Assembly: GCA_958296285.1 (NCBI GenBank) | Contig: OY282459.1 | Span: forward strand, 1,282,762-1,346,761 | DNA: 64,000 nucleotides | Direction of reading: 5' to 3' | Source: an uncultured Alphaproteobacteria bacterium | GTDB taxonomy: Bacteria; Pseudomonadota; Alphaproteobacteria; JAPOUT01; G958296285 | Translations under genes and position numbers: made by a program | Notes under the pieces: model-generated | Seen by the model: only the letters and a program-made list of their open reading frames with translations | The model's database searches: none | Told to the model about the DNA's origin: nothing | Shown: positions 8,232 to 44,996 of the stretch, in pieces | Layout: every line of letters starts with the position of its first letter | Position numbering within the stretch: the stretch's first letter is position 1

Positions 8232-9772
8232 GCGCCCCTTTCCCTGACGCCTCCGCTTTCCGCGACATTCACAATGCAGGCAAGACGCAGATCGTTCGGC
8301 TGACGCTGCCTGCCGATTTGGAAACGCCTGTCGCCGCGATGATCAAATTGGCGGCGGGGAAGCGCGGCGCGTTCCTTTTTGAATCGGTGGAGGGCGGAGA
8401 GGCTCGCGGACGCTATTCCGTCATCGGCTTCGCGCCGGACGCCATTTGGCGATCTTACGGCGCGAGATGCGAGATCAATCGGCAGGCGGCGCGAGACCCT
8501 GACGCTTTTGAGATTTTGAAAGAGCCGCCTTTGGACGCGCTTCGCCGTTTCATCGCGGAGTCGCGTTTTGATCTGCCTGACGGTTTGCCGTCTTTGTCGG
8601 CGGGTTTGTTCGGCTATATGGGCTACGACATGGCGCGTCATGCCGAGCGTTTCGGGTCTCCGCCGCCTGACGCGATTGGCATTCCGGACAGCGTTTTCGC
8701 GCGTCCGTCTCGTCTTGTGGTTTTTGATTCGGTCAGCGACACGATGATTTGCATTGTTCGCTCGTCTCCGCGCCGGGGGCGCTCGGCTGACGAGGCTTAT
8801 GACGAAGCCTGTCGCGCTTTGCGCGAGATGCGGACGGCTTTGCAGAGGCCTCTGATGCCGAAGGAGCGCGGCGAGGATAGCCAGAGCGATGAAGGCGATG
8901 AAAGCGGCGGGGGCGGCGCGTCTTCGTCTGTTTCCATGCCGGTGCCGCGGTCCAACATGCAGCGCGCGCTTTATTTGGAGAAGGTTCGGCGCGTTAAGGA
9001 GTATATTTTCGCTGGCGACATTTTTCAGGCTGTTTTGAGTCAGCGTTTTTCGGCGTCTTTTTCGCTTTCGCCCATGACGCTGTATCGGTCTTTGCGGCGG
9101 ATAAATCCGTCTCCTTATCTTTATTATTTGGATTTTGGGGATTTTTCGGTTGTTGGCTCAAGTCCTGAGATTTTGGTTCGGCTGCGCGAGGGCGTGGTGA
9201 CGATTCGTCCGATTGCCGGGACTCGTCCGCGCGGGGGGTCGGCGGCGGATGATCTTCGCATTGGCGAGGAGTTGTTGTCGGATCCGAAGGAGCGCGCCGA
9301 GCATTTGATGTTGTTGGATTTGGGTCGGAATGATGTTGGGAGGGTATCGGAGATTGGTTCTGTTCGCGTGACGGAGCGTTTCGCGCTGCAGCGGACGTCT
9401 CATCTCATTCACATTGTTTCCAATGTTGAGGGTGTTTTGCGGCGCGGTTTGGAGGCTTTGGACGCTTTGATGGCGGGTTTTCCTGCTGGGACGGTTTCGG
9501 GCGCGCCGAAGATTCGGGCGATGGAGATTATTGATGAGTTGGAGGATGAGAAGCGGAGTTTATATGCGGGGGCGGTGGGGTATTTTTCGGCGAATGGGGA
9601 TATGGACAGTTGCATTGCCTTGCGGACGGCGTTGGTTAAGGATGGGGTGATGTATGTTCAGGCGGGGGGTGGGATTGTGGCGGATTCGGAGCCTGCTTAT
9701 GAGTATCGGGAGTCTGTGAAGAAGGCGGAGGTTTTGTTTCGGGCTGCTGAGGCTGTTGGAGGCTCCCGTTGA
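8228..9772 (+). CDS. trpE: anthranilate synthase component I
   Basis: 514 aa, chorismate-binding C-terminal domain. The last codons (GGSR-stop) lie inside repeat module X. Confidence 0.93.
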   Translation: MSAPFPDASAFRDIHNAGKTQIVRLTLPADLETPVAAMIKLAAGKRGAFLFESVEGGEARGRYSVIGFAPDAIWRSYGARCEINRQAARDPDAFEILKEPPLDALRRFIAESRFDLPDGLPSLSAGLFGYMGYDMARHAERFGSPPPDAIGIPDSVFARPSRLVVFDSVSDTMICIVRSSPRRGRSADEAYDEACRALREMRTALQRPLMPKERGEDSQSDEGDESGGGGASSSVSMPVPRSNMQRALYLEKVRRVKEYIFAGDIFQAVLSQRFSASFSLSPMTLYRSLRRINPSPYLYYLDFGDFSVVGSSPEILVRLREGVVTIRPIAGTRPRGGSAADDLRIGEELLSDPKERAEHLMLLDLGRNDVGRVSEIGSVRVTERFALQRTSHLIHIVSNVEGVLRRGLEALDALMAGFPAGTVSGAPKIRAMEIIDELEDEKRSLYAGAVGYFSANGDMDSCIALRTALVKDGVMYVQAGGGIVADSEPAYEYRESVKKAEVLFRAAEAVGGSR

Positions 9773-10070
9773 GGGGGGTTTGGGGGGGCGGCGAGCCGCC
9801 GCGGGCATCTTTTTCATAGAGAGGCATTTTGGCTTTACCCCAGGGGAACTAATGCATAGAAGCTTGAGGTGAAGGGGGGGTTGGGGGGCTTGCCCCCCAA
9901 GAAAAACCAAGCGGGCGCAAGCCCGCTACGGGCGGCGGGCTTCTCGCGCACTTGCGCTACGCGCTGCGTGCGCTTCGTTGCGCCACGCCCGCCGACCTTT
10001 TCGGGGGGGATTCCCCCCGACCCCCCCTTTCTCAAGGGGGGCTAGCCCCCCTTGACCCCCCTCAAGAGGT
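9773..10070. repeat. Repeat cluster A: module X (+) about 9786-9880, degenerate Z-like palindromes about 9905-9995, module Y (+) about 9995-10065
   Basis: Near-identical copies of X and Y recur at 17390-17547. Multiple G6-N-C6 micro-palindromes (ggggggattcccccc, aaggggggctagccccccttg, ggggggcttgcccccc). No coding potential. Confidence 0.85.
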
Positions 10071-10084
10071 GCTATAGTCGCCCC

Positions 10085-10672
10085 ATGATCCTCCTCATAG
10101 ACAACTACGACTCCTTCACATACAACCTCGTCCATTTCCTCGGCGAACTGGGCGCCAAAACCAACGTCCAACGAAACAACGCCACATCAGCATCAAAAGC
10201 CCTCGCCAAAAAACCCCAAGCCATCATCATCTCCCCAGGACCCAAAACCCCAAACGAAGCAGGAATATCCCTAAATCTCATAAAAACCGCCGCCAAACAC
10301 AATATCCCAACCCTCGGCGTCTGCCTCGGACACCAAACCATCGGACAAGCCTTCGGCGCGAAAATCACCCGCGCCATCCCCACCCACGGCAAAATCAGCG
10401 CCATCAACCACAACAGCAAAGGAGTCTTCCAAAAACTCCCCTCACCCCTCCAAGCCACCCGATACCACTCCCTCATCATAGAAGAAAATACGCTGCCCCA
10501 ATGCCTCGCCATCACCGCGAGAACATCAGACGGAACAATCATGGGAATCCAACATAAAACCCTCAACGCCCACGGAGTCCAATTCCACCCCGAAAGCATT
10601 GAAACCGAACACGGACACAAAATCCTCCAAAACTTCCTCAAACTCGCAGGAATAAAAGGAATAAAAAAATGA
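10085..10672 (+). CDS. trpG: anthranilate synthase component II (glutamine amidotransferase)
   Basis: MILLIDNYDSFTYNLVHFLGELG, catalytic GVCLGHQ motif. Start set at MILLID (10085), not the upstream ORF-track start. The coding strand is extremely C+A-rich and G-poor. Confidence 0.93.
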   Translation: MILLIDNYDSFTYNLVHFLGELGAKTNVQRNNATSASKALAKKPQAIIISPGPKTPNEAGISLNLIKTAAKHNIPTLGVCLGHQTIGQAFGAKITRAIPTHGKISAINHNSKGVFQKLPSPLQATRYHSLIIEENTLPQCLAITARTSDGTIMGIQHKTLNAHGVQFHPESIETEHGHKILQNFLKLAGIKGIKK

Positions 10673-11694
10673 GCGAAAACCTCAAAAAAACCCTCGCGCT
10701 TATCGCGTCAGGCGAAAAACTCGCGCCCGCCCAAGCCGAAACCGCCTTCCAACATCTCATGTCCGGCGAAGCCAAAGACGCCGAAATCGGCGCGCTCCTC
10801 ATGGGACTCCATATGCGCGGCGAAACAACAGACGAAATCGCCGCCGCCGCCAAAATCATGCGCGCCGCCGCCACGCCCGTCCAAGCCCCGAAAAACGCCA
10901 TAGACCTCTGCGGAACAGGCGGCGATATGAAAGGAAGCCTCAATATCTCCACCGCCGCGTCTTTTATAGTCGCCGCCTGCGGCGTCCCGGTGGCGAAGCA
11001 CGGAAACCGCGCGCTCTCGTCTCAGTCAGGCGCGGCGGACGTCCTTTTGGCGCTCGGCGCTGAAACCGCCCTCCCGCCCCAGACCATCGCCCAATGCATC
11101 AAGGAAACGGGCATCGGCTTCCTCTTCGCGCCCTCGCACCACCCCGCCGCGAGACATGTCGCGCCGGCGCGCGCGGCGCTCGGCATCAGGACAATCTTCA
11201 ACCTCCTCGGACCTCTCTGCAATCCCGCCTTCGTCAAACGGCAACTGATCGGAGTCTTCGCGCCCGAATGGCTGACGCCCCTCGCCGAAGTGCTGCGCGA
11301 TTTGGGAAGCGAGCGCGTTTGGATCGTTCATGGCTCGGACGGGATGGACGAAATCACCCTTTCCGGCGAAACCCGCGCCGCCGAACTCAAAAACGGCAAA
11401 GTCCGCCCCTTCACGATCACGCCCGAAGAAGCAGGACTTCCTCGCGCTCCATCGGAGAGTCTCAAAGGCGGGACGCCTCAACAGAACGCGGCGGCTCTGC
11501 GGAGACTGTTGGACAGCGAAAGCGAAAACGGGGCTTATAGAGACGCTGCCGTTCTGAACGCGGCGGCGGCGCTCGTCATCGCGGAGAAGGCAGGAGATTT
11601 GCGCGAAGGCGCGGCGCAAGCCTCCGAATCTCTTTCCAGCGGACGCGCCGCCGACACCTTTCACGCCTTTCGCAATTTCACGAAGAAGCCATGA
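10669..11694 (+). CDS. trpD: anthranilate phosphoribosyltransferase
   Basis: Motifs DLCGTGGD and SSQSGAADVL, length 341 aa. Confidence 0.93.
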   Translation: MSENLKKTLALIASGEKLAPAQAETAFQHLMSGEAKDAEIGALLMGLHMRGETTDEIAAAAKIMRAAATPVQAPKNAIDLCGTGGDMKGSLNISTAASFIVAACGVPVAKHGNRALSSQSGAADVLLALGAETALPPQTIAQCIKETGIGFLFAPSHHPAARHVAPARAALGIRTIFNLLGPLCNPAFVKRQLIGVFAPEWLTPLAEVLRDLGSERVWIVHGSDGMDEITLSGETRAAELKNGKVRPFTITPEEAGLPRAPSESLKGGTPQQNAAALRRLLDSESENGAYRDAAVLNAAAALVIAEKAGDLREGAAQASESLSSGRAADTFHAFRNFTKKP

Positions 11695-12503
11695 GGCATA
11701 TCCTCCAAACAATCCAAACCCGCAAGCGCGAGGAACTCGCCCGCGCGCGAAAAGACGCCCCCCCATCCGCGTTGGAAGCGCGGACAGGCGAAGCTCCCGC
11801 AATCCGTCTTTTCCGTGAATCTTTGGAAAAGAGGCGCGAGACAAGCCCCGCGATCATCGCCGAGATTAAAAAGGCGAGTCCTTCCAAGGGCGTCATCCGC
11901 GAGGATTTTGACCCCGCCGCTCTCGCGGAAAATTTGGAGAAAGGGGGCGCGGCGTGTTTGTCGGTGCTGACGGATAAGGATTTTTTTCAAGGCGCGGCGG
12001 AGCATCTTGGAGAGGCGAAAGAGGCGACCGCGCTCCCAATCTTGCGCAAAGATTTTCTGATAGACCCCTATCAGGCGCTAGAGAGCCGCGCTTGGGGCGC
12101 GGACGCCGTGTTGTTGATTATGGCTCTGCTGGAGCGCCAGCAAGCCGCCGAGATCGCCGCCGCCGCGAAGGAATGGGAGATGGACGTCCTCGCCGAAGCG
12201 CATGACGAGAAAGAGTTGGAAGAGGCGCTGCGCTTAGAACCCGACATGATCGGCATCAACAATCGGAATCTCAAAACTTTTGAAACCTCGCTGGATGTGT
12301 CTTTGCGTCTTGCGCGAGAGATTCCGCGAGACGCGCTCGCCATCGCCGAGAGCGGCATTGAGAGCCATGACGACATTTTGCGTCTTCAAGAGGCGGGGAT
12401 CCATTGCTTCCTCATCGGCGAAACTTTGATGCGCGCCGATGATCCGGCGCGGAAGATTCGGGAGTTGTTAGGAGAAGAGGATGAAGAAGACAAGCCATCT
12501 TGA
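11691..12503 (+). CDS. trpC: indole-3-glycerol-phosphate synthase
   Basis: IIAEIKKASPSKGVIREDFDP motif; follows trpD. Confidence 0.92.
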   Translation: MRHILQTIQTRKREELARARKDAPPSALEARTGEAPAIRLFRESLEKRRETSPAIIAEIKKASPSKGVIREDFDPAALAENLEKGGAACLSVLTDKDFFQGAAEHLGEAKEATALPILRKDFLIDPYQALESRAWGADAVLLIMALLERQQAAEIAAAAKEWEMDVLAEAHDEKELEEALRLEPDMIGINNRNLKTFETSLDVSLRLAREIPRDALAIAESGIESHDDILRLQEAGIHCFLIGETLMRADDPARKIRELLGEEDEEDKPS

Positions 12504-12960
12504 CGAGCGCGGGCGGGTCTCTATGGCGGATGTCTCGGCGAAGAAGACGACCGAGCGCCGCGCCGAAGCCGAAGCCGTCATCATTATGCGCCCCGAAACG
12601 CTGCGCGCTCTTTTAGAAGGCGAAGGCAAGAAAGGCGACGCCTTCGCCGCCGCGAGAATCGGCGGCATCATGGCGGCGAAAAAAACCGCCGATCTCATTC
12701 CGCTCTGCCATCCCCTGCCGCTTGATCATATCGCTCTCCGCTTTGAGACAGACGAGAAAAAAGGACGAATCCGCATCGCCGCCGCCGTCAAAACGACAGC
12801 CCGAACAGGCGCGGAGATGGAAGCGCTGACCGCCGCCGCCATCGCCTCCCTGACGCTCTACGACATGGCGAAAAGCGAGGAGAAAGGGATACGGATAGAA
12901 AGTCTGCGTCTTCTTTCCAAAAGCGGCGGCAAATCCAAAGATTTTAACGCCGATGGATAA
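12481..12960 (+). CDS. moaC: cyclic pyranopterin monophosphate synthase MoaC
   Basis: Motifs SMADVSAKKTT and LIPLCHPLPLD. Confidence 0.92.
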   Translation: MKKTSHLDERGRVSMADVSAKKTTERRAEAEAVIIMRPETLRALLEGEGKKGDAFAAARIGGIMAAKKTADLIPLCHPLPLDHIALRFETDEKKGRIRIAAAVKTTARTGAEMEALTAAAIASLTLYDMAKSEEKGIRIESLRLLSKSGGKSKDFNADG

Positions 12961-14161
12961 TCTCATCTCTGTGGAAGAGGCTCTGCGCCTGATGGAGGCG
13001 GCGGCGCGTCCTCTGCCTAAAACATCCGCGCCATTAAGCGAGGCGGTCGGGCGCGTTTTGGCGAAAGAGATCAAGGCGCGTCTGACGCATCCGCCCTTCG
13101 CCGTCTCGGCGATGGACGGCTTCGCGCTCCATGCCGAAGATGCGCGGACTATCCCGGCGCGTCTGAACCTCATCGGAGAGTCGGCGGCGGGGAAGCCTTA
13201 TCAAGGCGAGGTCTCTCGCGGCGAAGCGGTAAAAATCCAAACAGGCGCGAGCATCCCCTCCCCTCTTGACGCCATCGCGCCCAAAGAGATAACGAAAACC
13301 GAAGGCGAGCATGTCAAGATTCTGAAACCTGTTCTGATCAAGCGGTTCATTCGAGAGGCGGGGCAGGATTTTTCTCGCCGGGAGGTTCTTCTTCCGAAAG
13401 GGCATCTGTTGGACGCGGCGGCGATCGGTCTGGCGGCGGCGGGCGGACATGACGCGCTTATCGTTCCGAGAAAGCCGCGCGTTTCGGTTTTGGCGTCAGG
13501 GAGCGAGCTTGTCGCGGCAGGCGTCTCGCCCAAGCGCGGGCAGATCGTCTCGTCCAACTCTTACGTTTTGACGGCGCTCTTGAATCAGATGAACGCGGAA
13601 GTTGAAGATTTAGGGATTGCGTCCGATTCTCTCGCCGATTTGGAAAGCGCGCTCGCCAAAAGCGCCGCGCCCGATCTTCTGATCACTATAGGGGGCGTTT
13701 CGGTCGGCGAGCATGACCTCATTCTGCCCGCTCTTCGCAAGCGGGGTTTTGAGACAATTCTGCATGGCGTGGCAATGCGTCCGGGAAAACCTTTTCTTTT
13801 CGGACGTTTGGGCAAGGCTTTTGTCATGGGTCTTCCCGGGAATCCTGTCTCGGCGCTTGTCTGCGCGCATCTTTTCATAAGACCTTTCCTGCGCGCGCTC
13901 GGCGGACATGACGCGCCCTATCAAGACAAAAGCGAATCCGCGATCCTTGACAAAAGCATCCCCGCCAATGGCGCGAGGCAGTCTTATCTGCGGGGACGTT
14001 TAAGAAAAGACGGAGACGCGCTTCACGTCCTCCCCTTCGCGCGACAAGACAGCGCGCTCCTTCGGGATATGGCTTATGCAGACGCGCTCATTTCGCGCCC
14101 TCCGTCAAGCCCGTCGGCCGAAGCGGGCGATGAAACTCGGATCTTGCGCCTCGCTTTCTAG
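12953..14161 (+). CDS. moeA: molybdopterin molybdotransferase MoeA
   Basis: 402 aa, MoeA-like N-terminal and MoCF-binding regions. trpGDC-moaC-moeA order is conserved in alphaproteobacteria. Confidence 0.9.
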   Translation: MDNLISVEEALRLMEAAARPLPKTSAPLSEAVGRVLAKEIKARLTHPPFAVSAMDGFALHAEDARTIPARLNLIGESAAGKPYQGEVSRGEAVKIQTGASIPSPLDAIAPKEITKTEGEHVKILKPVLIKRFIREAGQDFSRREVLLPKGHLLDAAAIGLAAAGGHDALIVPRKPRVSVLASGSELVAAGVSPKRGQIVSSNSYVLTALLNQMNAEVEDLGIASDSLADLESALAKSAAPDLLITIGGVSVGEHDLILPALRKRGFETILHGVAMRPGKPFLFGRLGKAFVMGLPGNPVSALVCAHLFIRPFLRALGGHDAPYQDKSESAILDKSIPANGARQSYLRGRLRKDGDALHVLPFARQDSALLRDMAYADALISRPPSSPSAEAGDETRILRLAF

Positions 14162-14607
14162 AGCAGCCCCGCCTCCGTCAAAGCCGCGCGCAGCTCTTCG
14201 GGCATATCGTCCGACAAGCCCGCTCTTTCCAAATCGGGGGGCGCGTCTTTCGCTTCCAAATAGCGCCAGCCCTGAAAAGCGCGGCGCGGGAAGGGCTTCG
14301 TCAGAACGAGTTCCAAATCCAAATCCAAAAGACAGCGCTTCACGCCGTCTCGCCCCTTATGCGGACGAATATCCAGAATCCTCTGCCGCGCCGCGATGAC
14401 GCCCCGAAAAACCCAATAAAGAGAGCCGTTCCGCGGCGAGCCGCTCGCCAAAATCTCTTCGCGCCGCTTCGGCGTCATGCGCGTGATGTGGAAGAGTTCG
14501 GGCGACTGCCCTCTCGCTTTTTGAGAGGCGATCTCGTCTCGCTGCCATCGCGCGAGTTCGGCGGGCGACCCCACGCCCACGCACAATTTGACCAAATGCA
14601 GCGTCAT
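14158..14607 (-). CDS. DUF1489-family protein (alphaproteobacterial conserved hypothetical)
   Basis: N-terminus MTLHLVKLCVGV matches the DUF1489 signature. Start set at the internal Met (14607). Confidence 0.65.
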   Translation of the reverse strand: MTLHLVKLCVGVGSPAELARWQRDEIASQKARGQSPELFHITRMTPKRREEILASGSPRNGSLYWVFRGVIAARQRILDIRPHKGRDGVKRCLLDLDLELVLTKPFPRRAFQGWRYLEAKDAPPDLERAGLSDDMPEELRAALTEAGLL

Positions 14608-14614
14608 AAAGACC

Positions 14615-15985
14615 TCACAGCAGAAAATACGCCGCCAAGCCCAAAAAGGCGAAAAAGCCGACAACATCCGTGACTGTCGTCAAAAACACGCCGGACGAAA
14701 TGGCGGGATCGGCGCCGATTTTCTCTAATGCCAGAGGGATCAGAATTCCAGCGAGCGCGGCGGTCAGCATATTGACAATCACGGCGGCGAAAAGAACCAT
14801 CCCAAGCGCGAAATTCTTAAACCACGCGCCTCCAATCACCCCCAAAATCACGGCAAGCGATACGCCATTCAGAACTCCCACGCCGATCTCGCGCATGATG
14901 ATCCTGCGCTGATTCGCCGCGACAAGCTCGCGAGTCGCCAGCGCGCGCACGGCGACGGTGAGAGTCTGAATGCCCGCCACGCCTCCCATGGACGCCACGA
15001 TCGGCATCAGAACCGCCAGCGCCACCATTCCGGCGATCGCGTCCTCAAAAAGCGCGATGACGACAGACGCCAAAATCGCCGTCATCAGATTGACGAAGAG
15101 CCATAAAAAGCGTCTGCGCGCCGATTCCAGCACCGTGCCGGAGAGTCTGTCGCGTCCGACTCCGCCGAGCCTCTTGATGTCTTCGCTCGCTTCTTCGGTG
15201 ATGACTTCCACGATGTCGTCCGCCGTGATCATGCCCATCAGCATGCCGTTCTGATCCACGACGGGCGCGCTGACCAGATTATATCGGCGGAAGGCTTCGG
15301 CGACATCTTCGCGGTCTTTATGGGCTTCTATCTTGAGAGGCTCGCCCTGCATCAGGCTGTTCAGAGACTCTTCGCGCTTGGCGCGGACGAGGCGGCTCGT
15401 CAAGACGCTTCCGATGAGTCTCCATGTCGGGCTGACGATATAGATTTCGTAGAAATCCTTCGGGAGTTCGGCGCTTTGGCGCAGATGGTCTATGACGCGT
15501 CCTACGCTCCAGAAGGCGGGGACGGCGACCAGATCGCGCTGCATGAGGCGTCCTGCGCTGTCTATCGGGTAATCCAGTCCGCGCTCAATATCGGAGCGCG
15601 CGCGGAGGGGAACGCGATCTAGGATATTTCTTCGGCGGGTTTCGTCCAGCCCTTCCACGAGGGCGAGCGCGTCATCGGAGGCGATTGTGGCGAGGGCGGG
15701 CGCGAGTTTTTCGGGGGCGAGGAGCGGGAGGATATCGGCGAGGACGCCTTCTTCCAGTTCCGAGAGGATTTCGGGCTTGAGTTCGTCATTGAGGAGGGTG
15801 ATGAGTTTGTGTCGTTCTTCGGGTTTGAGGAGTTCTAGGATTTCGGCGGCGTCTGCGGCGTGGAGTTCGTGGATTTGGTTTTGGAGTTTCGCGCGATGTT
15901 CCGCGGTGATGGCTTCGCGCGTTTCTTGGAGGATATTTGGGACGGGCGTTTCGGTGGGTTCCGTGGTGTGGGGGGGATTAGACAT
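14615..15985 (-). CDS. mgtE: magnesium transporter MgtE
   Basis: 456 aa, with MgtE N-domain, CBS pair and a C-terminal TM domain containing PIVASMGGVAGIQT-like motifs. Confidence 0.9.
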   Translation of the reverse strand: MSNPPHTTEPTETPVPNILQETREAITAEHRAKLQNQIHELHAADAAEILELLKPEERHKLITLLNDELKPEILSELEEGVLADILPLLAPEKLAPALATIASDDALALVEGLDETRRRNILDRVPLRARSDIERGLDYPIDSAGRLMQRDLVAVPAFWSVGRVIDHLRQSAELPKDFYEIYIVSPTWRLIGSVLTSRLVRAKREESLNSLMQGEPLKIEAHKDREDVAEAFRRYNLVSAPVVDQNGMLMGMITADDIVEVITEEASEDIKRLGGVGRDRLSGTVLESARRRFLWLFVNLMTAILASVVIALFEDAIAGMVALAVLMPIVASMGGVAGIQTLTVAVRALATRELVAANQRRIIMREIGVGVLNGVSLAVILGVIGGAWFKNFALGMVLFAAVIVNMLTAALAGILIPLALEKIGADPAISSGVFLTTVTDVVGFFAFLGLAAYFLL

Positions 15986-16096
15986 ACGCCGCGCCTTTTT
16001 TGCTTTTTTGTCTGTGGCGTATATTTAGCCTATGGGGGCTGATTTATAAAAGCCCCCGACTCTTTTGGATCGGGGGCGAGTTTGTGAGATTTTGTT

Positions 16097-16426
16097 CTAG
16101 GATGCTAATTTGAGAAGGATTGCGCCTGTCAGAGTGAAATTCGCTATCATGAAGGTGATGGTGACTCCGAACATCCATTTTAGCAGGCGCATGTCGGCTT
16201 GGACTTCTCCGAAGCGTTTTTCCATGTCTATTCTGAGTTCTCCGATCTGCGCGTTCATATCGGCGCGGAGTTCTCCGACCCGTTCTTCCACGTTCCGAAG
16301 CCGTTCTTCTATGTTCCGAAGCCGTTGCTCATCGCGGTTGGCTTCCAGCGCTTCTATAGCGGCGGTGGCTTTGTGATCGCTGACTTTCGCTTCTTTGAGG
16401 GCATCATAGACTGCGACGAGGCTCAT
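16097..16426 (-). CDS. DUF1640-like coiled-coil protein with C-terminal membrane anchor
   Basis: Heptad-like repeats (LRNIEERLRNVEERVGELRADMNAQIGELRIDMEKRFGEVQADM), then LLKWMFGVTITFMIANFTLTGAIL hydrophobic tail. Internal nucleotide direct repeat ttccgaagccgttcttc x2. Confidence 0.6.
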   Translation of the reverse strand: MSLVAVYDALKEAKVSDHKATAAIEALEANRDEQRLRNIEERLRNVEERVGELRADMNAQIGELRIDMEKRFGEVQADMRLLKWMFGVTITFMIANFTLTGAILLKLAS

Positions 16427-16489
16427 GGTTTATCTCCTTATGGTTGTGTTTTTGTAGCATTTTTGGTTCTTCTGCCGCAATCTTTAGAA

Positions 16490-16650
16490 GAAAGAAAAGG
16501 GGGGTGTGGGGGGTCGGAGACCCCCCGCGAAAAAGGGGGGATCGGGGGGATTCCCCCCCGAAAAGCGCGTGGGTGGGGTGGGGAAAAGAGCATTTGCGAG
16601 CGAAGCGTAAGCGTAGCGAGCAAATGCGACCCCACCCACGCGCCCCCTGC
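16490..16650. repeat. Repeat cluster B: G6/C6 micro-palindromes plus a module Y fragment (about 16500-16560) and module Z (- orientation, about 16565-16645)
   Basis: The Z copy gcgcgtgggtggggtgggg...gcatttgcgagcg...cgagcaaatgcgaccccacccacgcgcc is the reverse complement of 17302-17393. Z is itself an imperfect ~90-nt palindrome. Confidence 0.85.
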
Positions 16651-16672
16651 TCGCAGGAGCTACTGATTCAGA

Positions 16673-17131
16673 TCAAAGATCGCCAAGCCTGCGCCGAAAC
16701 ACTTCATCAAACTTTTCTAATCTCTCCTTGAACCAAGCATATTGCGCGCATCTGTGGTTCATATTTTCCCAATCAGCTTCCTCTTCCCAGCTTTGGGTAA
16801 TAGATGGGAATCCCCATTGCAGTGGTGGAGGTGTGCCAATTTCCCTCTCAATGGCTTCTTTATCTGCATGCAGTTGGTTAAAACATTCCTTAGCGTAAAG
16901 CATGTCGGTGTCGGGGACAGGAAAACTTTTGCCATAGATAGAAAACCTAACAGCTACCTTGCGCGGCGGCGTCTTATAAAAACACGCCCATATGCGAAAG
17001 CCTGCTCTCCCCATAGAGAATCCTAGAGTGCTGCCAGACGACCGACAACGCCCGCGCCCAATATGTGAGTCAGACGCTCTGAGGCACTTAAGCAAACCTT
17101 GCCAATAGAGGCGGTGTTCTTCTTTAGACAT
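16673..17131 (-). CDS. hypothetical protein, DUF4268-like; low-GC (~47%) islet gene
   Basis: 152-aa ORF with a clean start 18 nt downstream of the tRNA-Leu 3' end. GC is far below surrounding DNA, and the ORF sits between inverted Z elements. Confidence 0.55.
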   Translation of the reverse strand: MSKEEHRLYWQGLLKCLRASDSHIGRGRCRSSGSTLGFSMGRAGFRIWACFYKTPPRKVAVRFSIYGKSFPVPDTDMLYAKECFNQLHADKEAIEREIGTPPPLQWGFPSITQSWEEEADWENMNHRCAQYAWFKERLEKFDEVFRRRLGDL

Positions 17132-17149
17132 TTGTCATTTCCGCAAAAA

Positions 17150-17236
17150 TGGTGCGGTCGAGAAGACTCGAACTTCCACGGGGTTGCCCCCACAGCGCCC
17201 TCAACGCTGCGCGTCTACCTATTCCGCCACGACCGC
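17150..17236 (-). tRNA. tRNA-Leu (anticodon GAG), 87 nt with long variable arm, CCA encoded
   Basis: Reverse complement GCGGTCGTGGCGGAATAGGTAGACGCGCAGCGTTGAGGGCGCTGTGGGGGCAACCCCGTGGAAGTTCGAGTCTTCTCGACCGCACCA folds as a cloverleaf with anticodon loop TTGAGGG. Confidence 0.85.
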
Positions 17237-17246
17237 ATCCAAAACA

Positions 17247-17275
17247 CAATTAGCAGAAATTAACCAACCCCTCAA
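17247..17275 (-). promoter_or_regulatory. putative sigma70-type promoter for tRNA-Leu (-35 TTGAGG, 17-nt spacer, -10 TAATTG)
   Basis: Read on the minus strand immediately upstream of the tRNA 5' end; hexamer spacing is canonical. Sequence-only inference. Confidence 0.3.
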
Positions 17276-17279
17276 CCTC

Positions 17280-17547
17280 GCTAGAAATCTTGCGAACAGG
17301 GGGCGCGTGGGTGGGGTCGCATTTGCTCGCTCGCTACGCCACGAGTGGCTTCTCTTCGCTCGCAAATGCTTTTTTCCCCACCCCACCCACGCGCTTTCGG
17401 GGGGATTCCCCCGAACCCCCTTTCTCAAGGGGGGCTAGCCCCCCTTGACCCCCCTTCACCTCAAGCTTCTATGAATTAGTTCCCCCTGGGGCAAACCCAA
17501 AATGCCTCTCTATGAAAAAAATGCCCGCGGCGGCTCGCCGCCCCCCC
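17280..17547. repeat. Repeat cluster C: module Z (+, about 17302-17393), module Y (+, about 17393-17455), module X (-, about 17451-17547)
   Basis: X(-) is the reverse complement of 9786-9880 with few mismatches. Y is a direct copy of 9995-10060. X abuts and extends into the cysH stop codon. Confidence 0.85.
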
Positions 17548-18312
17548 TTAACGGGAGCCTCCATGAATCCCGCACTCCTCCTTCTCTAAACCACCCCATC
17601 TACCATCACGATACGAACCCCCCGAACCAACAGAAGCCGTGCAAGGAACACACCCTATAGACAAATACCCACGCTTCACCAACGGATGAACAACCAAACT
17701 ATGCCGCTCAACATAAGAACCAAGAGCCTCCTGATCCCAATCCACAAGAGGATTAATGGAAAACCGCGCCACGCTCCCCGCCATCTCCCGAAACTCTATC
17801 GCCTCCAAAATCGCCCGACTCGCCGTCTGAAAACGCTTCCGACCCGTGATCACCGCCTCAAATCCCCCCAACGCCCGCCGCAACGGCAAAACCTTCCGAA
17901 AATGACAGCAAGCGTCAGGATCCTCGCTCCAAAGAGAACCATCCGAATCCAACCGCGCCCGATCCACAGGATCAGGACCAATGGAACGCAAATCCGTCAA
18001 ACCCAGCCGATCCTGCAATAAATCACGATAGCGAAGAGTCTCCGGAAACAACTTCCCCGTATTCAGAAAAATCACGGGAACAGACGGATCAATCTCCGAA
18101 ACCATATGCAGCAAAACCACCGACTCCGAACCAAAAGACGAAACCACCGCAATCCTGCCCGGAAAAACCTCCTTGATCATCGCCTCAAGAAGAGGCTTGC
18201 CGGACAGCGCATATTCACGCCGCAACATCTCAAGACGCGCCGCCGCCTCGGCAGGAACCTCCCCCGAAGCGCGAGGCATCGGAATCTCGGCGCGATTCTC
18301 TAAACCAGCCAT
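17548..18312 (-). CDS. cysH: phosphoadenylyl-sulfate/adenylyl-sulfate reductase (thioredoxin-dependent, Fe-S type)
   Basis: PAPS-reductase fold (SFGSESVVLLHM), CC...CxxC cysteine pairs (ACCHFRKV, CVPCT) and C-terminal ECGIH motif. The coding strand is extremely G+T-rich. Confidence 0.88.
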   Translation of the reverse strand: MAGLENRAEIPMPRASGEVPAEAAARLEMLRREYALSGKPLLEAMIKEVFPGRIAVVSSFGSESVVLLHMVSEIDPSVPVIFLNTGKLFPETLRYRDLLQDRLGLTDLRSIGPDPVDRARLDSDGSLWSEDPDACCHFRKVLPLRRALGGFEAVITGRKRFQTASRAILEAIEFREMAGSVARFSINPLVDWDQEALGSYVERHSLVVHPLVKRGYLSIGCVPCTASVGSGGSYRDGRWGGLEKEECGIHGGSR

Positions 18313-18845
18313 TTTTGATCCTCCATCATCGCGCGGCTTTTCTCACGGACAGCGCTCGGCGCTAATCCCTGATCGCGCCACCGATCCCGCGCCGCCGACA
18401 GCGCCAACAAACGATCGCGCCATTCCGCCCCATAATGGCGAGAGAGATCATCACGAAGCATCCGCGCCGCCGAAGGCGATCTGCCTCCGGTGGAAACGGC
18501 GAAAAGCAAATCCCCTCGCCGCAAAATGGACGGAACATGAAAATCGCACAAAGCCGGAATGTCTTCTGTGTTGACAAGAGCGCCGACAGCGCGCGCGCGA
18601 GCCGCGAGCGGACGGGCTTCCTCTTCCGAAAATCCCGCGATGAACAGAATCGCGCCGCGCATCTCCTCATCTTTCGGAAGACGCCGCCGAATCGGAAAAC
18701 TCATCAGAGCCTCACCGCGCGGCGCGTAGATTTCCGCCTCCATCTTTGCCGCTCCGATGAGCCGACAGCGTTTTAACAGCGGCTCGCCCTCGCCAATGAG
18801 GAGAATCTTTTTCCGATTCGGGTTAAGGACGATCGGCAGCATCAT
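18300..18845 (-). CDS. standalone siroheme-synthase N-terminal domain (precorrin-2 dehydrogenase/sirohydrochlorin ferrochelatase, SirC/Met8-like)
   Basis: Rossmann-like LLIGEGEPLLKRCRLIGAAKM, then motif PSILRRGDLLFAVSTGGRSPSAARMLRDDLS as in the CysG N-domain. Adjacent to cysH. Confidence 0.65.
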   Translation of the reverse strand: MMLPIVLNPNRKKILLIGEGEPLLKRCRLIGAAKMEAEIYAPRGEALMSFPIRRRLPKDEEMRGAILFIAGFSEEEARPLAARARAVGALVNTEDIPALCDFHVPSILRRGDLLFAVSTGGRSPSAARMLRDDLSRHYGAEWRDRLLALSAARDRWRDQGLAPSAVREKSRAMMEDQKWLV

Positions 18846-25337: not shown

Positions 25338-26785
25338 CTGACCGCGACAACAACGCGCCGTCCGCCGCGCTCTAATACCAGACGGCGCGGCGGATTGGCG
25401 CTCTGAAATATCGCCGCCAGCGCCGCGACATCGGCGACAGCCGTCCCTCCCGCCTCGCGAATAATATCCCGCGCCGTGATGAGCCGCGCGGCGGGCGATC
25501 CCGTCTTGACGGAAAGAACGACCACGCCCGCCGCCCCATAATCCATATTCAACGCGCCGGCCAAGGCCGGAGACAAATTCGCCACTGTCACGCCGTTCAA
25601 AATATGCGCGCCGGACAATGCCCGCTCATCTTTAGGCACAGTCTCAGGCAGCGCCGCGACCCGAACCTCGGCGCGGCGCGCGCGCGCCTCCCGCGCATAT
25701 TCTATTTCTACGACAGAATCCTCCCGCGAGGTCTCTATCCTATATTTGAGAGCGAAGAGATCGGGCGCGTCATGGAGGCCGAATTTCCGCACGACATCCC
25801 CGACTTGCAGTCCGGCGAGACTGGCGGGGCTGTCCGGATAGATTTTCGTGATCAGAACGCCGGACGGGCTTTCTAGCGCCATCGCCTCGGCAATATCCGC
25901 CGTGACGCTTTGGAAATCCGCGCCGATCCAAAGACGGCGAAGCGGCTCGCCCTTCTCGGCAGCCTCCACGACTCGGCGCACGAGATTCGCCGGGATCGCG
26001 AAGCCAATGCCGACCGATCCGCCCGTTTGCGAGTAAATCGCCGTGTTGATGCCCGCCAGCCTGCCGTCCAACGTCACCAGCGCGCCGCCCGAATTCCCAA
26101 CATTGATCGCCGCGTCCGTCTGCAGAAAAAATCCGATATTGGATATGCCAGGACGCGCCCGCGCGGGCGCGGAAATAATCCCATTCGTCACCGTCTGTCC
26201 AAGACCAAAAGGATTCCCAATGGCGAGAACAATATCCCCGGTCTCCAGCGCGTCAGAATCGCCAAAAGGCAGAACCGACAAGCTCCTGCCCGCCGCCTTC
26301 GCGCCGTTCCCTTTCCCGCTCTGAAAATCAATTTTTAGAACCGCCAAATCGCTCCCCTCATCGGAAAGAATGAGATCCGCCCGAAACTCGCGGCGATCAT
26401 TTAAAGCGACAGTCAGCGCCTCGCTGTCGCGGACGACATGGTAATTCGTCACGACAATGCCGTCCTCGCCCAAAACAACGCCCGATCCCAGCGCGCGCTC
26501 AATGCGATCGCGGGGAATGCCGAAACCGCGCGGAAGCCCGCGAAAAAAATGCTCAAAAAAAGGATTGCGCCAAAGCGGCGTCCTCCGCCTGACGACACGG
26601 CGCGCATAGACGGTCACGACAGACGGCGCCGATTTCTTGACCGTCTCCGCGAAAGAAAACGCCAAAGACTCAGAAGAAGGACGAGACGTCCGCGCGAGAT
26701 GATTCTCCACAGCCCAAAACGCCGCGACTGCCGTCAAAAACGCGACGCCCAAAAGCCCCCCAAAGAAGAAAGGTTTCACCTTCAA
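25334..26785 (-). CDS. degP: Do-family serine endoprotease (DegP/HtrA) with PDZ domains
   Basis: Signal/TM N-terminus, trypsin-like motif GNSGGALV, two PDZ-like regions. Confidence 0.9.
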
Positions 26786-27201
26786 TCCGCGGACTCGTCT
26801 CTTTTAGGCGGCGGCGGTCCGGAATCTTGTCCGCGCGCCTTTTCGTCCCGCTCCACGAATTCCATAATGGCGCGCGGCGCGTCATCGCCTCGGCGGAAGC
26901 CCGCTTTAACAATCCGCGTATAGCCGCCGTCCCGCTCGGCATAGCGCGGCGCAAGCACCGCGAAAAGTTTCCGAACCCCCTTCTCCTCGCGCAGACGCGC
27001 CGCCGCGAGCCTCCGCCGCGACAATCCCCCGCGCTTCGCCAAACTCACCAACTTCTCCACAAAAGGACGCAAAGCCTTCGCTTTCGGCAGAGTCGTGACG
27101 ATCTGCTCATGCTTGATCAGCGCCGCCGCCATATTGGCGAACATCGCGCGTCTATGGCTGGAGCGCCGCCCCAATTTCGCCACCGATTTCCTATGACGCA
27201 T
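26782..27201 (-). CDS. rplQ: 50S ribosomal protein L17
   Basis: [28 protein letters not shown]. Confidence 0.95.
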
Positions 27202-44095: not shown

Positions 44096-44845
44096 TCATA
44101 CCCAGCCGCGAGACATGCAGGCCGGGCAGTGGCATGAATCTGTTGGAATCTTGTAATGGACCAAGCCGTGCATCACACCCTTATTTTTATCAAAGCGTCC
44201 GGCAATGTGATCAAAATAGCGAGCGTCCTTTTGCTCATAGCGCCTCCAAACCGCCCAAGCCAAGAGATCCGCAATTTGAATCAGGCGCGAAGCGGCGGAA
44301 TCGACAAATAAAGGGACTTCGGCAAGATTATGAAGTTTGCCCCATTGTGTGCCTTGCTGACGAAACCGCTGCGCGAGTCCTTGCAGAGTATTCTCATAAT
44401 GGGATTTATCCATGACGATCAGCCCACGATGAATATCCTGATTTTTTGACGCTGACCGAAAGAGGAACATGTTGAAGCGGTTGCAGATTTCTTCAAAGGC
44501 GTATTCAACAGAGTCGCCAGTCGTTCGCGCTCCCTTATCCACGATGACAGCAAAAGCCTTCACGCTCCAATGCGCGCTGTTAAGCAAATTCAACCCTTGC
44601 TCAATAGTATCAAGACGCTTCTGCCGCGCCATGCCTTTCCATGGCGCTCTCTTTCCTGTCGCCATCAAACTGGCATGAAGCTCAACATCGCCAGGGGCGC
44701 CAATCCCTAGAGACTCAACGAAATTGTCTGCTTCAGAAATGAGGTGATAGATTTGCCGCTCAAAAACCGCAACTCCGGCAAGAACAAAATGGCGCTCATT
44801 CGGGTTCCTAACGGAACCAGAACCGTCCAAATAAAGCAAATACAT
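44096..44845 (-). CDS. DUF3800-family protein, low-GC gene inserted between rpoC and the rpsL leader
   Basis: N-terminal MYLLYLDGSGS (YxDxSG-type motif), C-terminal RLIQIADLLAWAV (QxADL motif), ~250 aa. GC is ~48-50% versus >60% flanks. No ortholog expected at this conserved junction. Confidence 0.6.
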   Translation of the reverse strand: MYLLYLDGSGSVRNPNERHFVLAGVAVFERQIYHLISEADNFVESLGIGAPGDVELHASLMATGKRAPWKGMARQKRLDTIEQGLNLLNSAHWSVKAFAVIVDKGARTTGDSVEYAFEEICNRFNMFLFRSASKNQDIHRGLIVMDKSHYENTLQGLAQRFRQQGTQWGKLHNLAEVPLFVDSAASRLIQIADLLAWAVWRRYEQKDARYFDHIAGRFDKNKGVMHGLVHYKIPTDSCHCPACMSRGWV

Positions 44846-44996
44846 GAAAGACAGCCTCCAAAAAGGCAAATGCAGCCAGGTGGAGCATTAACTCGCTCCA
44901 GCAGACCGTGACAGCCACAGCCTTCCCGACCACAAAAGGAAATTTGGCGCGGCTAACGCCGAAAGTCAAGAACAAAAGCCGAAAGCAACGACAACA

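What the first reader, a model, noticed from the sequence alone, without database searches (positions are those of the whole stretch)
9773..17547. Modular GC-rich palindromic repeat family (X/Y/Z) in three clusters; inverted X copies bracket a 7.4-kb trpG-D-C-moaC-moeA-DUF1489-mgtE block
Clusters occur at 9773-10070, 16490-16650 and 17280-17547. Module Z is itself a ~90-nt imperfect hairpin, Y carries G6-N-C6 micro-palindromes, and X occurs once direct and once inverted. Order is A = X(+)...Y(+), C = Z(+) Y(+) X(-), B = Y-fragment Z(-). This looks like a REP/RIME/MITE-like non-autonomous element family. The inverted X copies bracketing 10070-17450 are substrates for segment inversion, and Z(-)/Z(+) bracket the low-GC islet.
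Basis: seen in the sequence. Interest (0 to 1): 0.55.

Follow-up and report, generated by a model that had tools for sequence, protein, structure and literature searches.

The report
Palindromic repeat clusters with skewed flanks
Three clusters of GC-rich hairpin repeats around the trp genes of a little-known alphaproteobacterium are real and differ between close strains, and the roughly 1 kb of essential genes beside each cluster has an extreme mirror-image base bias that suggests the clusters are long-standing DNA break or stall sites.

Summary
Clusters A (9757-10069), B (16497-16662) and C (17282-17563) share modules at 80-86% identity (E 1e-33 to 1e-45). There are no other copies in the 64 kb window.

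X begins with a terminator-like hairpin and, together with the G-run before it, supplies the last four codons (GGSR*) of both trpE and cysH.

Two relatives at 97-99% identity are collinear, so no inversion is seen, but their clusters hold different module sets. B is an inverted copy of C in both genomes. These arms enclose tRNA-Leu and a gene that differs between strains.

Genome-wide dispersal could not be tested. No transposase, TIRs or Rfam match were found.

The unexpected result is the flanks. In all four old flanks, third codon positions are 84-94% G+T on the strand whose 3' end points to the cluster (background 47 +/- 10%), decaying over about 1.3 kb. This mirrors the footprint of bidirectional resection at a double-strand break.

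Best reading: recombining palindromic mosaic elements that are chronic break or stall sites.

The parts
9757..9788 (+). Left edge of the repeat in cluster A. It holds the last 4 codons and stop of trpE (TGGAGGCTCCCGTTGA, 9757-9772), then G6-TTT-G7.
   Evidence: The same 16 nt end cysH on the other strand (I12; alignment). Both proteins end GGSR*.
9789..9873 (+). X core, copy 1 (85 nt, not palindromic). Its 5' end forms the hairpin GGCGGC-GA-GCCGCC followed by a T-run, a terminator-like site directly after trpE.
   Evidence: about 90% identical to 17455-17540 inverted. It has no overall structure (z -0.13). The terminator-like hit was scored on the cysH copy. This core is absent from cluster A of both relatives, where a single G6TTTG6 stands in its place.
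9874..9901 (.). G-hairpin 1: G7-TT-G6-CTTG-C6. Together with 9773-9788 it forms the 15-16 nt direct repeat that flanks the X core.
9900..9927 (-). S module: hairpin AGCGGGC-GCAA-GCCCGCT with a T-run on the minus strand. It is a terminator-like site facing the opposite way to X.
   Evidence: terminator-like, minus strand. (dG -9.7, z -4.7). Copies in L001 have T7 runs.
9930..9996 (.). W module: a ~67-nt imperfect hairpin with outer stem GGCGGGC/GCCCGCC.
   Evidence: dG -25.4, z -2.6. Homologous copies are in L001 clusters A', B' and C'.
9997..10069 (+). Y module, copy 1: G7-ATT-C6-GA-C7 followed by TCAAG6-CTAG-C6TTGA-C6. It ends 15 nt before the trpG start codon.
   Evidence: 40-nt perfect match to 17416-17455..
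16497..16564 (-). Cluster B, inverted Y-type part: G6-TGT-G6-TCGGAGA-C6 and G6-ATC-G6-ATT-C7 hairpins.
16565..16643 (-). Z hairpin, inverted copy.
   Evidence: (I3, I4). (dG -29.9, z -6.95).
16643..16662 (.). Boundary 20-mer CCCCCTGCTCGCAGGAGCTA. It is the last sequence shared with the relative before the variable gene, and it is the left half of a small palindrome whose right half is at 17282-17303.
   Evidence: 95% to L001 16866-16885. Read directly. The undivided palindrome is seen in L001 cluster A'.
16663..17149 (-). Variable low-GC cassette. ORF 16673-17131 is a fragment matching only the C-terminal half of DUF4268/PDC-S11 proteins. The relative carries a glutathione S-transferase gene here instead.
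   Evidence: GC is 0.48-0.49. It has no composition skew.
17150..17236 (-). tRNA-Leu(GAG), enclosed by the inverted B and C arms.
17282..17394 (+). Cluster C: right half of the boundary palindrome (17282-17303) and the Z hairpin, direct copy (17304-17394).
   Evidence: (dG -28.3, z -5.7).
17395..17454 (+). Y module, copy 2.
17455..17563 (-). X core copy 2 (17455-17540, inverted), then C7, then the last 4 codons and stop of cysH (17548-17563). On the minus strand the X hairpin and T-run lie directly after cysH.
8530..9756 (+). Skewed flank, left of A (3' part of trpE). Third-position G+T on the + strand rises from 0.66-0.74 to 0.84-0.94.
10085..11420 (-). Skewed flank, right of A (all of trpG and the 5' part of trpD). 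Third-position G+T on the + strand is 0.06-0.08, then 0.18-0.36, so the minus strand is the G/T-rich one.
   Evidence: TrpG amino-acid composition is an outlier.
15086..16096 (+). Skewed flank, left of B (5' part of mgtE). Third-position G+T on the + strand reaches 0.80-0.86. It is weaker (0.64-0.72) in the adjoining orf109, 16097-16426.
17564..18845 (-). Skewed flank, right of C (all of cysH, fading through the sirohaem synthase gene). Third-position G+T on the minus strand is 0.82-0.92, then 0.60-0.74.
   Evidence: CysH amino-acid composition is shifted.

Best explanation
The three clusters are mosaics of REP/BIME-like hairpin modules. They sit at gene ends and in intergenic DNA of a deep-branching alphaproteobacterium with a ~1.73-Mb genome.

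Shown:
- The modules are strong hairpins, and a whole cluster is a nested palindrome.
- Module content at the same three sites differs between genomes that are 97-99% identical elsewhere.
- The arms on either side of tRNA-Leu stay inverted copies of each other in both genomes, although their content differs.
- The X and G-run unit has replaced the C-terminal tails of TrpE and CysH.

Inferred function: X and S act as opposed intrinsic terminators that insulate neighbouring transcription units.

Inferred dynamics: modules are copied between clusters mainly by ectopic recombination or gene conversion, possibly helped by a hairpin-specific enzyme encoded elsewhere.

Inferred consequence: because the clusters are long palindromes, they are chronic sites of hairpin formation during replication. 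The hairpins would be cut by an SbcCD-type nuclease or would stall the fork. On both sides this would expose, or force resynthesis of, the strand whose 3' end points to the cluster. Over evolutionary time that strand would lose C and A and gain T and G across about 1 kb. This gives the mirror-image skew, and repair from other clusters would explain the module shuffling.
For: - Repeats and folds.
- Strain comparison: cluster A has the X core only in the window, while L001 and L102 have a Z-like hairpin there instead. L001 carries X in cluster B. B is an inverted copy of C in both genomes: 80% over 174 nt in the window, 82% over 244 nt in L001.
- Terminator-like sites on opposite strands.
- Truncated C-termini. 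CysH homologues carry about 12 residues after ECGIH, where this protein has GGSR*. TrpE is about 16 residues shorter than a syntenic homologue.
- Skew, third positions. G+T oriented to the cluster is 0.84-0.94 in trpE, trpG and cysH and 0.80-0.86 in mgtE. It is about half of maximum at ~900 nt and near zero beyond ~1.4 kb. Background is 0.47 +/- 0.10 in 340 blocks with only isolated extremes.
- Skew, all sites. All 11 windows of 400 nt with |G+T skew| >= 0.3 lie within 1 kb of a cluster.
- The skew ignores transcription direction. trpE and trpG are on the same strand and have opposite skew.
- Codon position 3 is more affected than position 1, and position 1 more than position 2.
- Protein composition is shifted. 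A/C-codon residues are 39.5% in TrpG against 27.5 +/- 2.1% in 119 homologues, and 15.4% in CysH against 22.9 +/- 1.7%.
- 9 of 11 single-step TrpG replacements are G>A or T>C on the coding strand.
- The strain-variable cassette has no skew.
- A syntenic relative (GCA_023423275.1) has neither clusters nor skew: G+T at third positions is 0.44-0.54.
- Literature. A 246-bp palindrome in E. coli is cut by SbcCD at each replication and repaired from the sister chromosome (PMC4213011). Bidirectional 5'-3' resection at a break gives mutated C on the top strand to the left and mutated G to the right (PMC6786661). This is the same geometry.
Against: - No breaks, stalls or transcript ends were measured.
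- The genome's repair genes (sbcCD, addAB/recBCD) are unknown.
- Divergence between the window and L001 is not raised in the skewed flanks: 0-1% against about 1% overall. This is expected once composition has reached equilibrium, but it gives no positive support.
- In E. coli the chronic palindrome break did not raise rifampicin-resistance mutation rates. RecBCD-type enzymes degrade both strands up to Chi, so a persistent 3' tail next to the break is not assured.
- CysH replacements show no clear excess of transitions.
- No Chi-like motif and no dinucleotide context was found.
- Only three clusters at one locus were seen, so the link between clusters and skew rests on four flanks.
Confidence: 0.45

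Rival explanations
1. The modules are non-autonomous transposable elements (REPIN or MITE type) moved by a transposase, for example a RAYT, encoded elsewhere in the genome. The clusters arise by repeated insertion into or next to existing copies. On this view the skew is a separate matter.
For: - The X core is present or absent at cluster A between strains and is flanked by 15-16 nt direct repeats, G6TTTG7 and G7TTG6.
- Z and W look like REPIN-sized hairpins.
- G5CTTGC5 is the core of Pseudomonas fluorescens REPs, and REPIN clusters form by insertion next to existing REPINs (PMC3116915).
Against: - The X core has no terminal inverted repeats.
- No GTAG-type 5' tetranucleotide is seen at the hairpins.
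- No transposase was seen among the window genes scanned.
- There are no copies outside the 8-kb region in 68 kb.
- The two arms around tRNA-Leu change in concert, which fits gene conversion better than independent insertions.
Confidence: 0.25
2. It is a purely local structure: one ancestral hairpin-rich spacer was duplicated and inverted within this 8-kb region, and there is no family beyond it.
For: - All copies lie within 8 kb. There are none in the remaining 56 kb of the window, in 3.8 kb beyond it, or in public metagenome, viral and plasmid collections.
- B is an inverted copy of C.
Against: - The same unit ends two unrelated genes, trpE and cysH, in frame. That needs at least two separate insertion or conversion events.
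- Modules have moved among the three sites since the strains split at about 1-3% divergence.
Confidence: 0.2
3. The skew records replication forks pausing at, or converging on, the clusters, as at a terminus or fork barrier, without breakage. The lagging-strand template behind a paused fork and the leading-strand gap ahead of the block are single-stranded for long periods.
For: - The sign of the skew is terminus-like: G/T-rich + strand to the left, C/A-rich to the right.
- The length scale is close to one Okazaki fragment.
- The + strand GC skew is negative from 18 to 64 kb even in the + oriented lipB.
- The locus lies at 0.54 of the circular relative contig, though the contig start is arbitrary.
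Against: - Three separate mirror points within 8 kb cannot all be the terminus.
- No dif-like site was found.
- The first 8 kb of the window shows no clear positive replication skew.
- This rival differs from the break model only in the intermediate and cannot be separated from it with sequence alone.
Confidence: 0.2
4. The skew is caused by transcription converging on the clusters (R-loops or exposure of the non-template strand), or by selection for structure-free flanks so that the hairpins fold on their own.
For: - Terminator-like hairpins face both ways in cluster A.
- A strand made almost only of G+T or of C+A cannot form Watson-Crick hairpins with itself.
Against: - It needs strong antisense transcription across trpG/trpD and the 5' end of mgtE, starting about 1 kb away in each case, for which there is no evidence. 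No promoter-like site was found in or beside the clusters (the coding flanks themselves were not scanned).
- Known transcription-linked skews are far weaker than 0.8-0.9 at third positions (general knowledge).
- Selection on several hundred synonymous sites, and against conserved residues of TrpG and CysH, is implausible.
Confidence: 0.07

Closest known systems
REP / BIME / REPIN elements of gamma-proteobacteria (E. coli BIMEs; Pseudomonas fluorescens REPINs, PMC3116915)
   Same: - Short GC-rich imperfect palindromes, including a G5-6-CTTG-C5-6 hairpin like the P. fluorescens REP core.
- REPIN-sized 70-95 nt hairpins.
- Mosaic clusters in alternating orientation at gene ends.
- Roles in termination or mRNA stabilisation are plausible.
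   Different: - Copy number and dispersal are unknown. Only three clusters at one locus were seen.
- No RAYT was seen.
- There is no conserved GTAG-type 5' tetranucleotide.
- One module (the X core) is not palindromic.
- The repeat reaches into coding sequence.
- I know of no report of a flanking composition skew for REPs.
RIME (Rhizobium-specific intergenic mosaic elements) and other alphaproteobacterial mosaic repeats (from my own knowledge: Osteras et al. 1995)
   Same: - The host is an alphaproteobacterium.
- Intergenic mosaics built from large palindromes.
   Different: No sequence similarity to Sinorhizobium or other replicons in PLSDB. No RIME consensus was available here to test directly.
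Rickettsia palindromic elements (RPE) and enterobacterial small mobile sequences that enter ORFs (PMC2759123)
   Same: A palindromic repeat contributes in-frame codons to host genes. Here it supplies the last four codons and the stop of trpE and cysH and replaces their native tails.
   Different: RPEs insert inside genes as whole 100-150 nt units in many copies. Here only gene 3' ends are involved and only two cases are known.
Engineered 246-bp interrupted palindrome in E. coli lacZ, cleaved by SbcCD (PMC4213011, PMC4125073, PMC4787754)
   Same: A long palindrome in a chromosome. There, it forms a hairpin on the lagging-strand template in each replication cycle, is cut, and is repaired by RecA/RecBCD from the sister chromosome without loss of the palindrome. 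This is the proposed mechanism for the clusters.
   Different: That system is artificial and short-term, and no local mutational footprint was reported for it. Here cleavage is inferred only from an evolutionary composition footprint.
'Single-switch' strand-coordinated mutation clusters at resected double-strand breaks in yeast (PMC6786661)
   Same: The geometry is the same. C is lost on the top strand to the left and G on the top strand to the right of one point, as expected from 5'-3' resection on both sides.
   Different: Those are one-off clusters caused by an expressed deaminase or a chemical mutagen. Here the pattern is a fixed, near-saturated composition domain in essential genes of a wild bacterium. 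A is lost as well as C, and transversions may contribute.

Membership tests
REP/BIME/REPIN | Short imperfect palindromes (REP, 20-40 nt), often paired as 70-110 nt hairpins (REPIN), arranged in mosaic clusters | tested here: met
   G-hairpins are 28-37 nt. Z and W hairpins are 67-92 nt with z from -2.6 to -7. Cluster A is a nested palindrome.
REP/BIME/REPIN | Extragenic location | tested here: inconclusive
   Mostly intergenic, but the repeat includes the last 4 codons and the stop of trpE and cysH.
REP/BIME/REPIN | Many dispersed copies per genome (tens to hundreds) | not testable with these tools
   The source genome (1,733,000 bp) is withheld from look-ups. Within 64 kb plus 3.8 kb, all copies lie in one 8-kb region.
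REP/BIME/REPIN | A cognate RAYT (Y1 transposase) gene flanked by the REPs | tested here: inconclusive
   None was found among the window proteins scanned with Pfam or in the gene lists of related loci. Not every window ORF was scanned, and the rest of the genome was unseen.
REP/BIME/REPIN | Conserved 5' GTAG-type tetranucleotide next to the hairpin (a feature recalled from the RAYT literature) | tested here: not met
   The hairpins are preceded by TGAA, TTTTC, CTCAA, AAAAG or AAGC. No shared GTAG was seen.
MITE | Terminal inverted repeats and a short target-site duplication around a discrete unit | tested here: not met
   The ends of the X core are not inverted repeats. It is flanked by 15-16 nt G-run direct repeats, which also occur on their own as part of the G-hairpin module.
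RIME (Rhizobium) | Sequence similarity to the RIME consensus of Sinorhizobium/Rhizobium | tested here: not met
   blastn of clusters A and B-C against PLSDB, which holds Sinorhizobium replicons, matched only tRNA-Leu and a 33-nt G-hairpin in Helicobacter plasmids. This is an indirect test.
Integron gene cassette / attC | An intI integrase nearby. attC hairpins with RYYYAAC / GTTRRRY core sites at the cassette boundaries. | tested here: not met
   No integrase was found among the annotated genes. The cassette is bounded by CCCCCTGCTCGCAGGAGCTA and the 3' end of the tRNA, without such core sites.
tRNA-linked genomic island | An integrase gene, and a direct repeat of the tRNA 3' end at the far boundary | tested here: not met
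   The variable segment is 487 nt (734 nt in L001) with a single gene and no integrase. No repeat of the tRNA 3' end is present at 16640-16680.
Known RNA families (Rfam 15) | A match at the gathering score | tested here: not met
   Only the tRNA reached the gathering score. All other hits were far below it.

The most novel reading that the evidence does not exclude
Natural palindromic repeat clusters in this bacterium are permanent, self-renewing DNA break sites. Hairpin cleavage at replication followed by resection on both sides has, over evolutionary time, driven about 1 kb of essential coding sequence on each side to near-saturated G+T on the 3'-ended strand and has changed the proteins' amino-acid composition. 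Repair from other clusters spreads and shuffles the modules. This would be the first evolutionary-scale 'single-switch' break footprint seen in a bacterial chromosome, and a way to find natural fragile sites from sequence alone.
Probability: 0.3. Interest if true: 0.85.

Novelty: new variant of a known kind. Interest (0 to 1): 0.68.

Why it matters
As a repeat family this is an ordinary kind of object, REP/BIME-like, in an unstudied lineage.

What is not ordinary is the footprint around it. Adjacent genes on the same strand have third-position G+T of 0.94 and 0.06, and this bias is tied to the distance from the palindromic clusters and is strong enough to reshape the composition of TrpG and CysH. 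I found no report of such local mirror-image skew beside bacterial repeats.

If the link holds genome-wide, three things follow:
- Long natural palindromes would be shown to be lasting sites of single-strand exposure or breakage in wild bacteria.
- Composition alone could be used to map such sites and their tract lengths.
- The spread of mosaic repeats would be linked to break repair rather than to transposition.

All of this can be tested on the complete genomes that already exist.

Tried and rejected
1. Finding the rest of the genome.
- Exact look-ups of the window's TrpG, TrpE and MoeA failed. The source is a 1,733,000-bp NCBI/ENA contig that is withheld.
- Two metagenome scans, with a 22-mer from X and a 23-mer from W, found nothing.
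- Viral scans gave nothing for W and two chance hits for a Z 19-mer.
- PLSDB blastn matched only the tRNA.
- A concatenated six-frame translation of the clusters used as a protein query found nothing. This is uninformative: the database holds only cluster representatives and the candidate list was saturated.
- A left extension through KdsA returned only a contig already held.

2. Known RNAs. Rfam at gathering and permissive thresholds found nothing.

3. Terminus markers. No dif-like site was found.

4. Is the skew general to such hairpins? There is no skew around the G6 hairpin motif in 98 loci from other genomes.

5. Chi-like motifs or deaminase context in the skewed strands. None was found. 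Dinucleotide ratios match the background.

6. Raised divergence in the flanks between strains. None was seen. This was judged not decisive, because at compositional equilibrium the substitution flux is limited by the slow reverse changes.

7. Integron, tRNA-island and defence-system readings of the islet were rejected. The ORF is only a C-terminal DUF4268/PDC-S11 fragment.

8. Sigma-70 promoter scan of the clusters: no hits.

Full report
OBSERVATION

Self-BLAST of the clusters against the whole window, refined, gives four matches:
- A 9757-9898 matches C 17563-17429 in inverted orientation (86% over 144 nt, E 4e-45).
- A 9999-10062 matches C 17395-17455 directly (94% over 64 nt). This includes a 40-nt perfect stretch.
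- B 16497-16655 matches C 17456-17291 inverted (80% over 174 nt, E 5e-38).
- A 9943-10062 matches B 16620-16498 inverted (74%).

No other copy exists in the 64 kb, and runs of six or more G or C are concentrated in the clusters. Z folds as an 80-92 nt hairpin (z -5.7 to -7.0). Cluster A as a whole folds as a nested ~300-nt palindrome (dG -101.5 kcal/mol, z -6.2). B and C are also far more stable than shuffles.

ANATOMY

Reading the sequence against the alignments gives more modules than X, Y and Z.
- Cluster A starts inside trpE. TGGAGGCTCCCGTTGA (the last four codons and the stop) is part of the repeat, and the same 16 nt end cysH on the other strand. Both proteins therefore end GGSR*.
- G6TTTG7 follows, and then an 85-nt X core (9789-9873) with no overall structure (z -0.13).
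- The 5' end of X is the hairpin GGCGGC-GA-GCCGCC plus a T-run. The scan scores this as a terminator on the cysH copy.
- Next come a G7TTG6-CTTG-C6 hairpin and a small GNRA-loop hairpin, S (9910-9927). S has a T-run on the minus strand, so it is a terminator-like site facing the other way.
- Then come a ~67-nt hairpin, W (9930-9996), and the two G/C-run hairpins of Y. Y ends 15 nt before the trpG start codon.
- B is two G/C-run hairpins plus Z.
- C is Z, then Y, then inverted X.
- X therefore points the same way as the gene it follows in both places. This explains 'once direct, once inverted'.

CysH homologues carry about 12 more residues after the ECGIH motif. A syntenic TrpE is about 16 residues longer. 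The repeat has therefore replaced the native C-terminal tails of both proteins.

RELATIVES

TrpG has one cluster of close relatives. Every other homologue is at 69% identity or less, so this is an isolated alphaproteobacterial lineage.
- The window's TrpG is identical to a protein on a 1,733,000-bp NCBI/ENA contig. That contig cannot be looked up.
- Two other strains could be read: a circular 1,723,605-bp contig (L001 and L100) and a fragmented assembly (L101 and L102).
- They are 97-99% identical to the window and collinear across the whole block. No inversion is seen.

The clusters differ between strains.
- In both relatives cluster A lacks the X core and one copy of the G-run repeat. It carries a Z-like hairpin and a small palindrome instead.
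- In L001, cluster B carries X+S+W and cluster C carries W+S+X.
- In each genome B is an inverted copy of C: 174 nt at 80% in the window and 244 nt at 82% in L001. The two arms have changed together even though the tRNA-Leu between them is conserved.

The segment between the B arm and the 3' end of the tRNA also differs.
- The window has a 487-nt low-GC piece with a fragment of a DUF4268/PDC-S11-type gene.
- L001 has a 734-nt piece with a glutathione S-transferase gene.
- Both pieces begin right after the shared 20-mer CCCCCTGCTCGCAGGARCTA.
- A more distant syntenic genome (tpiA-ppiD-trpE-...-trpG-trpD-trpC-moaC-moeA) has no such clusters.

WHAT COULD NOT BE SETTLED

- Module-specific patterns found nothing in JGI metagenomes or IMG/VR, and the plasmid collection holds nothing similar.
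- Neither the remaining 56 kb of the window nor 3.8 kb beyond it in two relatives holds a copy. That part of the window is mostly tightly packed ribosomal-protein and RNA polymerase operons.
- No transposase, RAYT or integrase was seen among the genes scanned. There is no Rfam match.

THE FLANKS

Composition profiles show a strong skew that is tied to the clusters.

All sites:
- All 11 windows of 400 nt with |G+T minus A+C| >= 0.3 lie within 1 kb of a cluster.
- The window mean is -0.03 and the SD is 0.11.

Third codon positions, G+T on the + strand:
- 0.84-0.94 over the last 800 nt of trpE.
- 0.06-0.08 over all of trpG, and 0.18-0.36 in the first half of trpD.
- 0.80-0.86 in the first 300 nt of mgtE, a minus-strand gene.
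- 0.08-0.18 over all of cysH, also a minus-strand gene.
- Background blocks have mean 0.47 and SD 0.10 (n = 340), with only isolated extremes.

Oriented to the nearest cluster, the skew is about 0.85 for the first 600-700 nt. It is near half of that at ~900 nt and near zero beyond ~1.4 kb, in all four flanks.

The rule is geometric: on each side, the strand whose 3' end points to the cluster is rich in G and T.
- Transcription direction does not explain it. trpE and trpG are co-oriented neighbours with opposite skew.
- The effect is strongest at position 3, weaker at position 1 and weakest at position 2.
- It reaches the proteins. Residues with A/C-only first two codon bases make up 39.5% of TrpG against 27.5 +/- 2.1% in 119 homologues, and 15.4% of CysH against 22.9 +/- 1.7%.
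- Of 11 lineage-specific TrpG replacements explainable by one base change, 9 are G>A or T>C on the coding strand. CysH gives a mixed picture.
- The strain-variable cassette has no skew, and orf109 next to B has less.
- The syntenic relative without clusters has third-position G+T of 0.44-0.54 throughout.
- Loci from other genomes that carry the same G-hairpin motif show no skew.
- Three independent assemblies carry the same intact genes, so this is not an assembly artefact.

INTERPRETATION

The pattern matches what bidirectional 5'-3' resection at a double-strand break produces. Damage to the 3' tails removes C on the top strand to the left and G on the top strand to the right (PMC6786661). 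A 246-bp palindrome in E. coli forms a hairpin on the lagging-strand template in each replication cycle. SbcCD cuts it, and it is repaired from the sister chromosome without losing the palindrome (PMC4213011).

A ~300-nt nested palindrome, and 170-240 nt inverted arms about 0.6-0.9 kb apart, are plausible substrates for the same reaction. Repair that sometimes uses another cluster as template would explain three things: the shuffling of modules between sites, the concerted change of the B and C arms, and the gain or loss of the X core between G-run repeats.

I therefore read the clusters as REP/BIME-like mosaic hairpin elements. They probably serve as opposed terminators, and they are probably chronic break or stall sites. 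Only the anatomy, the strain differences and the skew are shown. Breakage, termination and the copying mechanism are inferred.

Alternatives that sequence alone cannot exclude:
- Fork pausing without breakage, which predicts the same sign.
- Strand-specific errors of repair synthesis rather than deamination.
- A transposase acting in trans.

Divergence between strains is not raised in the flanks. That does not argue against a mutational cause once composition has reached equilibrium, but it also gives no support. No Chi-like motif or sequence context was found, and no dif site.

COMPARISON AND VERDICT

By anatomy the clusters work like REP/BIME/REPIN elements. The G5-6-CTTG-C5-6 hairpin is even the core of Pseudomonas fluorescens REPs.

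Membership cannot be claimed:
- Copy number and a cognate RAYT are untested.
- No GTAG-type tetranucleotide is present.
- One module is not a palindrome.

MITE, integron cassette and tRNA-island readings each fail a defining feature. The inverted X pair could support inversion only weakly, with 27 nt as the longest identical run, and none is seen.

As a repeat family this is a new member of a known kind. The mirror-image skew of the flanking essential genes is, as far as I could find, undescribed, and it is what makes the locus worth following up.

Noticed in passing
window 8530-9756, 10085-11420, 15086-16096, 17564-18845: Extreme mirror-image strand composition in the coding flanks of every cluster. 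Third-position G+T reaches 0.94 and falls as low as 0.04-0.08 on the + strand, decaying over about 1.3 kb. It is independent of gene direction and strong enough to shift TrpG and CysH amino-acid composition.
   Followed up: yes
L002-L099, e.g. L006, L017, L021, L039 (Rhodobacterales); L019, L020, L024 (Amycolatopsis); L053, L071 (cyanobacteria): The motif G6-N2-4-G6-CT[A/T]G-C6 occurs in many phyla. The bases between the G runs usually pair with the bases after the C run. In Rhodobacterales it sits in a conserved context (CCCCCC-AGAGTATTT-N-AAGATGAAAG). In Amycolatopsis and Streptomyces it is followed by a conserved GGCTGGGGTCTGGGGCTCGGCCCCAG. These look like lineage-specific repeat families. 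None matches Rfam and none shows flank skew.
   Followed up: partly
window 16663-17149 vs L001 16886-17619: The single gene between cluster B and the 3' end of tRNA-Leu differs between strains that are 97-99% identical. The window has a fragment of a DUF4268/PDC-S11-like gene and L001 has a glutathione S-transferase gene. There is no integrase and no att-like repeats.
   Followed up: partly
window 9757-9772 and 17548-17563: TrpE and CysH both end in GGSR* encoded by the repeat. Their native C-terminal tails (about 16 and about 12 residues in homologues) are missing.
   Followed up: yes
window 10052-10087: trpG has no Shine-Dalgarno sequence. A TATAGT box lies 6 nt before its ATG and a TTGACC from the Y module lies 15 nt upstream of that, so the mRNA may be leaderless with a repeat-borne -35. 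The -35 is not conserved in L001.
   Followed up: no
window 11700-12000 (start of trpC): A patch of 12% divergence from L001 within a region that differs by about 1-4%. It is probably a recombination import from a more distant strain.
   Followed up: no
window 16097-16426 vs L001 16009-16526: orf109 (a coiled-coil protein with a C-terminal hydrophobic segment) lies next to cluster B. In L001 the region is partly duplicated (extra 61-aa ORF; window 16243-16300 matches twice). In L102 mgtE is called as a shortened 269-residue product, possibly a frameshift in that assembly.
   Followed up: no
window 44873-44932 and 44096-44869: A DUF3800-VI RNA motif (Rfam RF02915, 40.6 bits) lies directly upstream of a DUF3800 gene, in a low-GC stretch (GC 0.51) between ribosomal-protein genes and rpoC.
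   Followed up: no
window 26500-27100: A weaker isolated skew spot. Third-position G+T on the + strand is 0.16-0.22 in two blocks, spanning the 5' end of the degP-like gene and rplQ. No repeat cluster is nearby.
   Followed up: no
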